From a virus (taxonomy: Duplodnaviria > Heunggongvirae > Uroviricota > Caudoviricetes), in IMG/VR virus record IMGVR_UViG_3300028888_000086: 64,000 nt of DNA. One strand, given 5' to 3'. Below the pieces are notes generated by a model. The model was not told where the DNA came from, did no database searches, and saw only the letters and a list, made by a program, of their open reading frames with translations. How positions within the stretch are numbered: the stretch's first letter is position 1; each line of letters opens with the position of its first letter. Positions 4,886 through 6,567 of the stretch are shown here, in pieces. The translations under genes were made by a program, and so were the position numbers.

Positions 4886-4892
4886 TAATATT

Positions 4893-5260
4893 CCACTAGG
4901 TTCGTTATTCCTAGTGCGTTCTCAGATAATAATATCTTGAACTGCTTATACTTTCATATAAGATTAGACTATATCTTCATCCTTAATTACTTAAGGAGCT
5001 TAGCACTTCCACTAGACTTCTAGTGTACTCTCTTTCGAGATAGTCGTTGGGGTTAAATCTATTATACTGAGTTGGTCAATTCTCAGTTTAATTATATTTA
5101 AATTTAACCTGCTGATTGCCCATTGTTTCATATTAACCTTGTTCATCATAAGTGACCAAACCTACTATAGTTAATCTTTAGGGGATTCCAGCATTTCACT
5201 AAGTGTACATAACATATTACTATGTTACTGCTCAATTTTACACAAAGCATAGAGCATCCC
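4893..5260 (-). mobile_element. group I intron (family 1, no ORF) in rpoB-like gene; boundaries +/-10 nt
   Basis: It separates ...RRIPFINSTDSVRISMG (aligns to [17 protein letters not shown]) from MKQSIPLV. Minus-strand R element CCCCAACGACUAUCUC at ~5036-5053 and S element GGAUGAAGAUAUAGUCUAAUC at ~4957-4978 are in the right order and spacing. The terminal G precedes exon 2. Confidence 0.7.
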
Positions 5261-6567
5261 ATTGAAATACGAACAGAGTCAGTAGAGTTAATAAATGGAA
5301 TACGTCTGGTTGTTGAAGAAAGTCGATAATCAGGGTGTAAGTCTATTAAATCTATTTCTTCTACATTAACCATTTTTCTTTTCATTCTATATTTTACCTC
5401 TACTTGTCCACTTTCATTAGGCTTTAATATTTTCTTATCATAATCAACAAATTCAGATGCACATACTTTAGAATTCAAATAATCAATATAAGGAATAGTT
5501 ATCTTATTAAATTCTTTATCATATACATCAAACATTACACCATCATCAGTAATATGTGTAGATACTGTTAATGAGTTTTGTTTATTTGTATTATTATTAA
5601 TAGGAGTATCAGCTAAGTCAATAAGATCCGTAAAAGTTGTATTAAAAGCCGTAGTTTCAGGTATTTGAATTTTACTACCTAAACTATCCAAATTTATAGC
5701 ATTGATTCCAGGAGGTACTTGTAAATTACTATCTCCTTTTGATTCACTAGTTCCTTTAAAAAATCTAAAAGCTAAAGTTGTAATAGCTGTAACTTCTTCT
5801 TGAATCTTATTATACTTAGTAAAATAACTAGTAATTCTTCTTCTTGCTGATATATAATTACTTCCATTACTAGATCTAAATAAGAAATTCATAAAACTAG
5901 TATATACACTATCTATCTTCTTATCAACTATCAAGTCCTTTAGTCTATCATCCCCGAAAGCTAAACACTCATCAATAAGCTTTGTAGTAATATATTCTGG
6001 CTTATAATCTAAATCTAACTTAATCTGAAATTTCTTTATTTGTATATCAGTAAGTTTTAGTTGTTCTTTTTTATCACCAGTTAGTTTATCAATGTCTTCA
6101 TACTTAATTTCTATAGCTCTTTCTGAAACACTAGGATTTAATTCATTCTGCCTTTTGATTTTTAATACACCTTTTTTGATATCATATTTTCTATTATAGT
6201 CAAAGTTTATATATTGATCTCCTACATCAGACATACGAATCCTACAGTCAAAATCTCCGTCTAATTTATTTGTTGCAATTCTATAAGCTCCTTCGATAAT
6301 AAAAGCTCCATCAATCTCTTTAGGTATTTCAAAAGTTGCATATTTTATCTCAGGGTTATCATTTAATCTATACGAAATTTCTATTAGGTGAGATGCTGTT
6401 AAACTATTTTCTATATAATAAGCAGCTGGTCTTGGTGGTTGTTCTTTAATAGTATAATCTAAATCTACTATACTATATTTCGTATTAAATGAATCCACCT
6501 TATTAAAAAACCTAGTTACTATAGTTTTAATACCATCTCTTTTTAATAATTCATTGAAATTACTCAT
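5146..6567 (-). CDS. rpoB: RNA polymerase beta subunit, N-terminal exon (true exon end ~5257-5261; ORF tail reads into the intron)
   Basis: IDGAFIIEGAYRIA (GxFIINGxERV), LQVPPGINAINLDSLG (ETPEGPNIGLI), RRIPFINSTDSVRISMG. Confidence 0.85.
   Translation of the reverse strand: MSNFNELLKRDGIKTIVTRFFNKVDSFNTKYSIVDLDYTIKEQPPRPAAYYIENSLTASHLIEISYRLNDNPEIKYATFEIPKEIDGAFIIEGAYRIATNKLDGDFDCRIRMSDVGDQYINFDYNRKYDIKKGVLKIKRQNELNPSVSERAIEIKYEDIDKLTGDKKEQLKLTDIQIKKFQIKLDLDYKPEYITTKLIDECLAFGDDRLKDLIVDKKIDSVYTSFMNFLFRSSNGSNYISARRRITSYFTKYNKIQEEVTAITTLAFRFFKGTSESKGDSNLQVPPGINAINLDSLGSKIQIPETTAFNTTFTDLIDLADTPINNNTNKQNSLTVSTHITDDGVMFDVYDKEFNKITIPYIDYLNSKVCASEFVDYDKKILKPNESGQVEVKYRMKRKMVNVEEIDLIDLHPDYRLSSTTRRIPFINSTDSVRISMGCSMLCVKLSSNIVICYVHLVKCWNPLKINYSRFGHL

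What the first reader, a model, noticed from the sequence alone, without database searches (positions are those of the whole stretch)
4886..5265. Group I intron in the rpoB-like gene at the [11 protein letters not shown]-equivalent site, with ambiguous junction
The upstream ORF ends ...RRIPFINSTDSVRISMG (compare [17 protein letters not shown]) and the downstream ORF begins MKQSIPLVNAQRPLVDTG (compare [18 protein letters not shown]). The 370-nt gap holds the family-1 R and S elements. A GGA triplet sits at both candidate junctions, so several splice positions give RISMG-ILMKQ, while the strict U/omega-G rule would instead give RIS-IILMKQ. Like the rpoC introns, this one targets an invariant active-site-proximal motif.
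Basis: partly seen in the sequence, partly recalled or inferred. Interest (0 to 1): 0.6.

Follow-up and report, generated by a model that had tools for sequence, protein, structure and literature searches.

The report
Self-splicing intron in phage RNA-polymerase gene
A 362-base self-splicing (group I) intron with no gene of its own interrupts the RNA-polymerase beta-subunit gene of an AT-rich jumbo-phage-like genome; it is an ordinary example of a known phenomenon, and its splice junction is unambiguous once it is placed correctly.

Summary
A group I intron lies on the minus strand at 5244..4883 (362 nt). Rfam RF00028 scores it at 74.7 bits (E 5.5e-19) in a local scan.

Sixteen intron-less homologues read ...TDSVRISMG[TS][SG]MLKQSIP... 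without a break. Exon 1 therefore ends at ...RISMGCSML (ctt 5247-5245) and exon 2 starts at KQSIP (4882).

These sites obey the strict group I rules:
- U5245 forms the U.G wobble with G5233 in P1.
- The last intron base is G4883, the G of the apparent 'ATG' start of the downstream ORF.

The product aligns without gaps to Thermus beta, and the site corresponds to E. coli Q686|R687.

Three further full copies of the same intron at the same site, in metagenome contigs, keep all 83 modelled pairs, 10 of them through compensatory changes. P7.1 and P7.2 mark it as subgroup IA (IA2-like). It has no endonuclease ORF.

Group I introns in a phage RNA-polymerase beta gene (PhiPA3) and in gut jumbo phages are already published, so this is a new member of a known kind. 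Relatives carry introns at six sites within 42 nt here. Splicing itself is inferred, not shown.

The parts
5245..6567 (-). Exon 1 of the RNA-polymerase beta-like gene (codons 1-441, ending ...TDSVRISMGCSML; last codon ctt 5247-5245)
   Evidence: ORF list. Intron-less homologues read RISMG[TS][SG]ML-KQSIP without a break. Translation of the spliced sequence.
4883..5244 (-). Group I intron, 362 nt, no ORF longer than 45 aa, subgroup IA (IA2-like)
   Evidence: Rfam RF00028 at 74.7 bits, E 5.5e-19. Covariation in 4 copies. Fold z-score -3.43. ORF list.
5229..5249 (-). P1: exon bases UGCUU (5249-5245) pair with the internal guide GAGCA (5233-5229). U5245.G5233 is the wobble pair that marks the 5' splice site. 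Inner extension G5243.U5235 and U5242-A5236.
   Evidence: Rfam alignment. Pair list. All five exon-guide pairs are invariant in 4 copies.
5210..5227 (-). P2 hairpin (7 bp, GUAA loop)
5197..5203 (-). P3, 5' strand (CUUAGUG), pairing with 5005-4999
5110..5193 (-). P4 (5193-5188 with 5115-5110) and P5 (5183-5181 with 5121-5119), with a P5 extension at 5180-5122
5051..5109 (-). P6 (5109-5102 with 5058-5051) with terminal hairpin P6b (5086-5082 with 5071-5067). The extension is missing in copy L056.
   Evidence: one compensatory G-C to A-U change in P6b.
5040..5049 (-). R element and P7 5' strand (GACUAU 5045-5040), pairing with 4972-4967
5010..5039 (-). P7.1 (5039-5037 with 5032-5030, GAAA loop) and P7.2 (5025-5020 with 5015-5010), the insertions typical of subgroup IA
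   Evidence: There are compensatory changes in both, and both hairpins are kept in distant homologues.
4999..5005 (-). P3, 3' strand (UGCUAAG)
4980..4997 (-). P8 hairpin (7 bp, GUAA loop)
   Evidence: two pairs with compensatory changes.
4967..4977 (-). S element and P7 3' strand (AUAGUC 4972-4967)
4945..4962 (-). P9 hairpin (7 bp, GAAA loop)
4894..4942 (-). P9.1 (GUUC 4942-4939 with GAAC 4921-4918, with inner stem 4937-4933 / 4928-4924) and P9.2 (4916-4910 with 4900-4894, loop AAUAACGAA)
   Evidence: five of the seven P9.2 pairs show compensatory changes. The in-frame stop tga at 4924-4922 lies inside P9.1.
4883..4883 (-). Terminal guanosine (omega-G), the last intron base. It is the G of the 'ATG' that gene callers take as the start of the downstream ORF.
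   Evidence: Homologue junction. The same ...AAUG|AAACA end occurs in L056, L057, L179 and L180. The rpoC paralogue has a parallel end ...GAAUAUCAAG|GAU.
3026..4882 (-). Exon 2 (codons 442-1059, starting KQSIPLVNAQRPLVDTG)
   Evidence: (Pfam RNA_pol_Rpb2_6, 1.6e-15).

Best explanation
[quoted passage not shown] The gene belongs to an AT-rich (27.5% GC) jumbo-phage-like genome.

The gene is transcribed as one pre-mRNA from the minus strand. The internal guide sequence (5233-5229) pairs with the last five exon-1 bases to form P1. An external guanosine bound in P7 attacks after U5245. The freed exon-1 end then attacks after the terminal G4883. This joins ...tct atg ctt | aaa caa agt... at a codon boundary.

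The result is a 1059-residue beta subunit that reads ...TDSVRISMGCSML-KQSIPLVNAQRPLVDTG..., restoring the conserved motif equivalent to E. coli [14 protein letters not shown] (site Q686|R687).

Shown here: the ribozyme's identity, its secondary structure with covariation, the exact boundaries, and presence/absence of the intron among homologous genes. Inferred: that splicing actually happens, and that it needs no protein. Because the intron carries no endonuclease, its spread must depend on an endonuclease supplied in trans, on recombination with intron-bearing relatives, or on vertical descent (inference).
For: - Rfam RF00028 matches the full model at 74.7 bits against a gathering score of 50, E 5.5e-19.
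- Sixteen intron-less homologues and five intron-less IMG/VR loci read RISMG[TS][SG]MLKQSIP without a break, which fixes the exon ends.
- Those ends coincide with the P1 U.G wobble (U5245.G5233) and with a terminal G (G4883).
- The window sequence allows no alternative register, because T5244 differs from A4882 and T5245 differs from G4883.
- The spliced product aligns without a gap across the junction to Thermus beta 516-703, E 9e-26.
- It scores 206.9 bits against a profile of the intron-less homologues. The other four candidate junctions score 198.7, 193.3, 190.2 and 184.3.
- Three more full copies of the same intron at the same site (L056, L057, L179) and one 3' fragment (L180) come from independent metagenomes.
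- On the four full copies all 83 modelled pairs are standard pairs (326 cells, 100%). Ten pairs carry compensatory double changes. None of 500 shuffles reaches any of the five measures, and slid registers give only 31-45% pairing.
- Distant homologues in viral contigs keep the P7.1, P7.2, P8, P9, P9.1 and P9.2 hairpins with different sequences.
- The MFE z-score is -3.43.
- The 3' half is homologous to introns in 239 deposited phage genomes.
- An in-frame stop lies at 4924-4922, and the 33 read-through codons after L441 have no counterpart in any intron-less homologue.
Against: - There are no RNA data. Splicing in vivo or in vitro is not shown.
- The core helices P3, P4, P6 and P7 are invariant in the four close copies, so covariation there comes only from the Rfam model and the distant homologues.
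- P10 is only 2-3 bp (exon-2 AA with U5234 and U5235).
- Whole-window Rfam scans did not report this intron. Only the local scan did, which is a filter effect.
- The intron ends in an in-frame AUG, so translation of a separate C-terminal fragment from unspliced RNA cannot be excluded formally.
Confidence: 0.9

Rival explanations
1. Exon 1 ends at RISMG (or RIS) and exon 2 includes the ATG, giving RISMG-ILMKQ or RIS-IILMKQ, with several equivalent splice positions around the duplicated GGA.
For: GGA occurs at 5259-5257 and at 4894-4892. G4893 and G4894 could in principle act as the terminal G. An alternative pairing of UUCAAU (5266-5261) with AUUGAG (5236-5231) can be drawn from the sequence.
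Against: - None of the intron-less homologues has G-I-L-M-K-Q. All have G-[TS]-[SG]-M-L-K-Q.
- These products score 13.6 and 22.6 bits lower than the correct one.
- RISMG|ILMKQ needs a 5' splice site after G or A, not U.
- The U5261 option pairs U with A rather than G, and it shortens the motif by one residue.
- G4894 is the closing base of P9.2, a helix supported by five compensatory pairs.
- The paralogous rpoC intron has the same tail...GAAUAUCAAG|, ending 11 nt after P9.2.
Confidence: 0.02
2. A genuinely split gene. The two ORFs are translated separately as N- and C-terminal beta fragments, as in PhiKZ/AR9-type phage polymerases, and the RNA between them is a dead or non-splicing relic.
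For: The downstream ORF has its own in-frame ATG (4885-4883), which is kept in all five copies. Split beta subunits exist in other jumbo phages (own knowledge; the AR9 fragment 7s00_C is a weak hit).
Against: - The break would fall inside the most conserved motif.
- The N fragment would carry 33 unrelated residues.
- The intervening RNA is under clear structural selection and has an intact catalytic core.
- Close homologues have one continuous gene.
- Promoter-like sites in the region are no more frequent than in shuffles.
- Predicted group I introns of the related Jug phages were seen spliced in metatranscriptomes (37 of 76; PMC12880540).
Confidence: 0.04
3. A group I intron with the boundaries given here, but one that cannot splice by itself and depends on a protein cofactor (maturase or host factor), or that splices inefficiently as a regulatory step.
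For: P10 is short and the RNA is AT-rich (32% GC), so it may need stabilisation. Some phage and organelle group I introns need protein help (own knowledge).
Against: All the elements typical of autonomous phage IA2 introns are present. These include GNRA-type loops (GUAA on P2 and P8, GAAA on P7.1 and P9) and peripheral helices P7.1, P7.2, P9.1 and P9.2 that usually stabilise the core. No maturase-like ORF is nearby.
Confidence: 0.1

Closest known systems
PhiPA3 gp210 intron in the RNA-polymerase beta-subunit gene (Birkholz et al., Science 2024; PMC11620839)
   Same: It is a group I intron inside a jumbo-phage RNA-polymerase beta gene, in the same conserved segment (E. coli [16 protein letters not shown]). 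The PhiPA3 intron sits right after D675 and the window intron after the Q686 equivalent, 11 codons downstream.
   Different: The PhiPA3 intron carries an HNH homing endonuclease (gp210), which cuts the PhiKZ homologue. The window intron has no ORF. The host polymerases are only distantly related: the window beta is closer to bacterial beta than to PhiKZ/AR9-type subunits.
Group I introns of 'Jug' jumbo gut phages of Bacteroides/Phocaeicola (Sci Adv 2026; PMC12880540)
   Same: These are relatives of the window's phage lineage. IMG/VR contigs of 200-400 kb encode beta at 65-69% identity. [quoted passage not shown]
   Different: The Jug introns average about 206 nt. At this locus the relatives carry small introns (about 187-217 nt) at other positions (N|Y and G|T), not the 362-nt IA2-like intron at L|K. 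In the text I could read, the paper names terL, nrdD and DNA polymerase as interrupted genes, not rpoB.
Subgroup IA2 introns of cultured phages (Staphylococcus Twort/Kayvirus group, Bacillus SPO1-like phages, T4 td/nrdB/sunY)
   Same: They share the core and the P7.1/P7.2 insertions. The 3' half (P7 to P9.2) gives blastn matches in 239 phage records, 144 of them Staphylococcus phages. The best is the Bacillus phage LBC2 UvsX-like gene, 75% identity over 160 nt.
   Different: No deposited phage record covers 80% or more of the intron. The host gene and the insertion site are different. The subgroup assignment rests on P7.1/P7.2 and my own knowledge, not on a subgroup-specific model.
The paralogous intron in the rpoC-like gene of the same window (about 10736..9245, minus strand)
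   Same: The 3' half is homologous (nhmmer 1.9e-16), with the same P9.1/P9.2 architecture and the same GAAUAU-N3-4-G tail. It also splits an invariant catalytic motif (NA|DFDGD).
   Different: It carries a 383-aa endonuclease ORF (phrog_559 'HNH endonuclease', 2e-91). The rpoB intron carries none.

Membership tests
Group I intron (Rfam RF00028) | The covariance-model score reaches the curated gathering threshold over the whole model | tested here: met
   74.7 bits against a gathering score of 50, model positions 1-253 of 253, E 5.5e-19. Whole-window scans missed it because of speed filters.
Group I intron (Rfam RF00028) | P1 forms between the 5' exon end and an internal guide, with a U.G wobble at the 5' splice site | tested here: met
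   UGCUU (5249-5245) pairs with GAGCA (5233-5229), with U5245.G5233. The pairing is invariant in 4 copies and coincides with the exon end defined by intron-less homologues.
Group I intron (Rfam RF00028) | The last intron base is a guanosine (omega-G) | tested here: met
   G4883 immediately precedes the first codon (aaa, K442) shared with intron-less homologues.
Group I intron (Rfam RF00028) | Core helices P3-P8, including the P3/P7 pseudoknot, supported by covariation | tested here: inconclusive
   All core pairs form in all 4 copies, but P3, P4, P6 and P7 never vary among them. The compensatory changes lie in P6b, P7.1, P7.2, P8 and P9.2. Core support rests on the Rfam model and on conservation in distant homologues.
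Group I intron (Rfam RF00028) | Exon ligation restores the reading frame and the conserved protein sequence | tested here: met
   The junction falls at a codon boundary. The product aligns without a gap to Thermus beta and gives the best profile score of five candidate junctions.
Group I intron (Rfam RF00028) | Guanosine-dependent self-splicing | not testable with these tools
   This needs in-vitro transcription and splicing, or RNA sequencing.
Subgroup IA2 of group I introns | P7.1 and P7.2 hairpins inserted between the P7 5' strand and the P3 3' strand | tested here: met
   P7.1 is 5039-5030 and P7.2 is 5025-5010. Both are kept with compensatory changes and are present in distant homologues.
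Subgroup IA2 of group I introns | Best match to a subgroup-specific model (GISSD or the Selles Vidal models) | not tested
   No subgroup models are available in the tools. The assignment is 'IA, IA2-like'.
Mobile (homing) group I intron | An intron-encoded homing endonuclease | tested here: not met
   No ORF longer than 45 aa on either strand within 4883-5244.
Mobile (homing) group I intron | Presence/absence polymorphism at one and the same site in homologous genes | tested here: met
   Present at L|K in the window, L056, L057, L179 and L180. Absent from that site in 16 homologous proteins and in all 54 IMG/VR loci that span this region (L046 is partial), some with the identical flank ATGCTT|AAACAG.
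Naturally split beta subunit (PhiKZ/AR9 type) | Two independently translated fragments with no ribozyme between them and no conserved motif cut | tested here: not met
   A ribozyme lies between the fragments and the break falls inside the [11 protein letters not shown]-equivalent motif.
Intein | An in-frame protein insertion with splicing domains | tested here: not met
   The insertion has an in-frame stop 33 codons after L441, and another at 4924-4922. Pfam finds nothing in the N-terminal ORF.

The most novel reading that the evidence does not exclude
The 42-nt stretch of the beta gene that encodes N-YTDSVRISMGTSML-K may be a multi-site homing battleground. Across this phage lineage, group I introns occupy six different positions: N|Y, S|V, the first Met codon AT|G, G|T, the second Met codon AT|G, and L|K. 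Up to two occur per gene, leaving mini-exons of only 12-30 nt. Two of the sites carry HNH-like endonuclease genes. Under this reading, the window's ORF-less intron at L|K persists because it disrupts the target of such an endonuclease. It would then act as an immunity 'plug' in competition between co-infecting phages, as described for PhiPA3 against PhiKZ.
Probability: 0.25. Interest if true: 0.55.

Novelty: new member of a known kind. Interest (0 to 1): 0.3.

Why it matters
For annotation, the two ORFs 5146..6567 and 3026..4885 should be merged into one 1059-residue beta subunit joined at 5245|4882. The apparent start codon of the second ORF is really the intron's last three bases. Gene callers in public databases make the same mistake for dozens of homologues.

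Biologically, this is a further case of a group I intron sitting next to the active site of a phage RNA polymerase, 11 codons from the PhiPA3 site. It also points to an unusually dense cluster of intron insertion sites in this gene among gut jumbo phages. That cluster could be used to study competition between homing endonucleases and introns, and to ask how short an exon between two group I introns can be.

Methodologically, a whole-window Rfam scan missed a 75-bit intron that a local scan found.

Tried and rejected
- Megablast of the whole gene against deposited phages found no match.
- An exact 22-mer from the P5/P4/P6 junction found no hit in IMG/VR.
Many hits may be chance, but nhmmer showed that several dozen are real group I introns. 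I used these only as distant homologues.
- Whole-window Rfam scans at the gathering and E-value thresholds did not report this intron.
- I did not build my own covariance model. The intron (362 nt) is far beyond the size for which calibration is accepted, so I used MAFFT alignments with hand-placed helices and the count of structure pairs instead.
- The 9-sequence MAFFT alignment of distant homologues misaligns variable hairpins. I therefore did not use it for pair counts and folded segments separately.
- Alternative junctions were considered and rejected. U5246/G4893 gives RISMGCSML-ILMKQ at 198.7 bits. U5261/G4896 gives RISIGILMKQ at 190.2 bits. U5245 with G4910 would add ten residues and cut through P9.2.
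- Supplementary tables of the Jug-phage paper are not held, so I could not check whether rpoB introns are listed there.
- The promoter/terminator scan gave nothing above background.
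Full report
**1. What is in the sequence**

The genes in this part of the window run on the minus strand. ORF 5146..6567 (473 aa) contains ...RRIPFINSTDSVRISMG and then runs on for 36 more codons (CSML plus 32 others). ORF 3026..4885 (619 aa) begins MKQSIPLVNAQRPLVDTG and matches Pfam RNA_pol_Rpb2_6 at 1.6e-15.

A local Rfam scan of 4600-5500 finds a full-length match to the group I intron model RF00028 at 5254..4945 (-). The score is 74.7 bits against a gathering score of 50, E 5.5e-19. 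Two whole-window scans did not list it. They did find another intron at 10845..11101, so the miss is a speed-filter effect and not evidence against the intron.

So are the two GGA triplets. Its coordinates and the junction discussion are not correct.

**2. Where the exons really end**

A search with a junction-spanning peptide returned 120 homologues. Sixteen of them span the site in one piece and read TDSVR[IVL][SHE]MG[TSA][SG]M[LI]KQ[SA]IP. Five IMG/VR loci (L001-L005) do the same.

In the window, RISMG is followed in frame by C-S-M-L, so CSML is exon sequence and not read-through. KQSIP is the start of exon 2, so the 'M' of MKQSIP is not exon. This gives:
- Exon 1 ends with ctt at 5247-5245.
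- Exon 2 starts with aaa at 4882.
- The intron is 5244..4883, 362 nt.

These are exactly the positions that the group I rules require:
- In the Rfam alignment the first helix pairs exon UGCUU (5249-5245) with GAGCA (5233-5229). U5245.G5233 is the wobble pair.
- The last intron base is G4883, the G of the apparent start codon.
- No other register gives the same mRNA in the window, because T5244 differs from A4882 and T5245 differs from G4883.

The spliced protein has 1059 residues. Its junction region aligns without any gap to Thermus beta 516-703 (E 9e-26). There, ripfinstdsvrismgcsmlkqsiplvnaqrplvdtg lies over [37 protein letters not shown].

For E. coli numbering I used the D675 anchor given for the HDD motif in PMC11620839. 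On that numbering the site is Q686|R687.

A profile built from the intron-less homologues scores five candidate junctions as follows:

| Junction | Source | Bits |
|---|---|---|
| RISMGCSML-KQ | this report | 206.9 |
| RISMGCSML-ILMKQ | U5246/G4893 alternative | 198.7 |
| RISIGILMKQ | U5261/G4896 alternative | 190.2 |

**3. Anatomy of the ribozyme**

Helices in window coordinates:

| Helix | Coordinates |
|---|---|
| P1 | 5249-5245 / 5233-5229, inner extension 5243-5242 / 5236-5235 |
| P2 | 5227-5221 / 5216-5210, GUAA loop |
| P3 | 5203-5197 / 5005-4999 |
| P4 | 5193-5188 / 5115-5110 |
| P5 | 5183-5181 / 5121-5119, with a 59-nt extension |
| P6 | 5109-5102 / 5058-5051 |
| P6b | 5086-5082 / 5071-5067 |
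| P7 | 5045-5040 / 4972-4967 |
| P7.1 | 5039-5037 / 5032-5030 |
| P7.2 | 5025-5020 / 5015-5010 |
| P8 | 4997-4991 / 4986-4980 |
| P9 | 4962-4956 / 4951-4945 |
| P9.1 | 4942-4939 / 4921-4918 |
| P9.2 | 4916-4910 / 4900-4894 |

After P9.2 comes the tail GAAUAUUAAUG, ending at G4883. P7.1 and P7.2 place the intron in subgroup IA (IA2-like). That assignment rests on my own knowledge of the Michel-Westhof classification, not on a subgroup model.

P10 is short: exon-2 A4882 and A4881 pair with U5234 and U5235. The MFE is -85.5 kcal/mol, z = -3.43 against shuffles. No ORF longer than 45 aa lies in the intron on either strand. Promoter-like and terminator-like sites are at background level.

**4. Comparative support**

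The same intron, at the same L|K site, occurs in four independent metagenome assemblies:
- L056 (ENA ERZ1767612)
- L057 (ERZ28573570)
- L179 (ERZ932019)
- L180 (NCBI GCA_004194585.1), which holds only the 3' part

On the four full copies all 83 modelled pairs are standard pairs in all 326 cells. Ten pairs carry changes on both sides: one in P6b, one in P7.1, one in P7.2, two in P8 and five in P9.2. None of 500 shuffles reaches any of the five measures, and sliding the 3' partners by 1-3 columns drops pairing to 31-45%. The core helices P3, P4, P6 and P7 do not vary among these close copies, so for them the test is silent.

More distant relatives of the ribozyme in viral contigs (L123, L074, L112, L149, L157, L162 and others; nhmmer E 1e-22 to 1e-10) keep P7.1, P7.2, P8, P9, P9.1 and P9.2 as hairpins with different sequences.

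The 3' half also matches introns in 239 deposited phage genomes, including 144 Staphylococcus phage records, Bacillus and Acinetobacter phages, and Lak phages. None covers 80% of the intron.

**5. Surroundings**

The window (27.5% GC) holds at least three more group I introns:
- One in the rpoC-like gene at about 11101-10845, next to the PTLH motif (Rfam 69.4 bits).
- A second in rpoC at about 10736-9245. It splits NA|DFDGD and carries a 383-aa ORF (phrog_559 'HNH endonuclease', 2e-91). Its 3' half is a paralogue of the rpoB intron.
- One in a DNA-polymerase-like gene at about 45.64-45.88 kb.

**6. Relatives and the insertion hot spot**

IMG/VR holds 55 loci from contigs of mostly 200-400 kb whose beta is 65-69% identical. 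These are probably the 'Jug' gut phages (360-402 kb) or their kin. That link is an inference from size, source and intron content.

At this locus the 55 loci divide as follows:
- 5 are intron-less.
- 4 have a roughly 214-nt intron at N|Y.
- 17 have a roughly 194-nt intron at G|T.
- 28 have both, leaving a 30-nt mini-exon.
- 1 is partial.

Other contigs add three more sites:
- S|V, a small intron in L182.
- The first Met codon AT|G (L181, L182), carrying a 256- or 264-aa HNH-like ORF. For the L182 ORF, Pfam HNH scores 21.2 bits, just under the 21.4 cut-off; the L181 ORF has no Pfam match.
- The second Met codon AT|G (L178, L181, L183).

L181 has a 12-nt mini-exon (GGGAACTTCGAT) between two introns, and L182 has one of 14 nt. 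For each of these I checked by eye that a P1 with a U.G wobble and a terminal G fit the inferred junction.

With the window's L|K site, that makes six insertion sites within 42 nt. I did not find this cluster described in the text I could read.

**7. Comparison with what is known**

- Group I introns in essential phage genes at conserved motifs are textbook knowledge.
- A group I intron in a jumbo-phage RNA-polymerase beta gene, right after the DD of HDDANR, is published for PhiPA3. Its HNH endonuclease gp210 attacks PhiKZ. The window's site is 11 codons downstream.
- Jug phages carry about 18.5 group I introns per genome. Splicing was confirmed for 37 of 76 predicted introns by metatranscriptomes.

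The window intron is therefore a new member of a known kind. It has a new sequence and a new site, it lacks an ORF, and its architecture is ordinary.

**8. Verdict**

- The group I intron is confirmed.
- The boundaries are corrected to 5244..4883.
- The junction ...RISMGCSML|KQSIP... is unambiguous and obeys the rules.
- Splicing itself is inferred.

Interest is modest (0.3). The value lies in the corrected annotation and in the dense intron hot spot seen in relatives.

Noticed in passing
window 10845-11101 (-): There is another group I intron (Rfam 69.4 bits, E 1.5e-15) in the rpoC-like gene. It lies directly after the ORF 11100..12281, which ends ...NRPPTLHKEICDL, so it sits at the conserved PTLH(R) motif. 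I did not work out the exact splice sites.
   Followed up: partly
window about 9245-10736 (-): A third group I intron splits the beta'-like catalytic motif NA|DFDGD. The 5' site follows gct at 10739-10737, and the tail ...GAAUAUCAAG ends at 9245. The intron carries ORF 9420..10571 (383 aa; Pfam DUF4379 treble-clef; phrog_559 'HNH endonuclease', 2e-91). Its 3' half is a paralogue of the rpoB intron (nhmmer 1.9e-16).
   Followed up: partly
window about 45640-45880 (+): A group I intron lies between ORFs 43163..45679 and 45882..46535, the latter matching a DNA-polymerase PHROG at 9e-27. It has P4/P6 and S elements like the rpoB intron (ATGGACAATCAGCAGG, AAGGTATAGTCTAAAC).
   Followed up: partly
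window 47228-48850 (-): A free-standing 540-aa ORF has internal repeats and a C-terminal match to homing-endonuclease PHROGs (phrog_9084, 2.6e-15). It is a candidate trans-acting endonuclease for ORF-less introns.
   Followed up: no
L181 2740-3160; L182 1810-3080; L008 3560-4030; L178 2250-2560: Relatives carry group I introns at five other positions within 42 nt of the same beta-gene segment, up to two per gene. This leaves mini-exons of 12 nt (L181), 14 nt (L182) and 30 nt (L008 type). Two of the sites hold HNH-like ORFs.
   Followed up: partly
window 1-64000 (method): Whole-window Rfam scans, at both the gathering and E-value thresholds, missed the 74.7-bit rpoB intron. A 900-nt local scan found it. 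More small introns may be hidden in this window.
   Followed up: no
window 61775-62172 (-), 13567-13654 (+), 14108-14225 (+): There is a cluster of four tRNA genes, one further tRNA, and a weak sub-threshold alpha_tmRNA-like match (26.6 bits against a gathering score of 50).
   Followed up: no
public protein clusters P0014-P0120: Dozens of database 'proteins' for this gene are artefacts of intron-blind gene calling. N fragments run into intron read-through, and C fragments start at ATG/GTG/TTG codons inside or at the end of introns (MLKQSIP, MGTSMLKQ, MKQSIP).
   Followed up: partly
window 2380-3018 (-): A 212-aa ORF directly downstream of the beta gene has a weak RNA-ligase PHROG match (phrog_755, 1.3e-4).
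   Followed up: no
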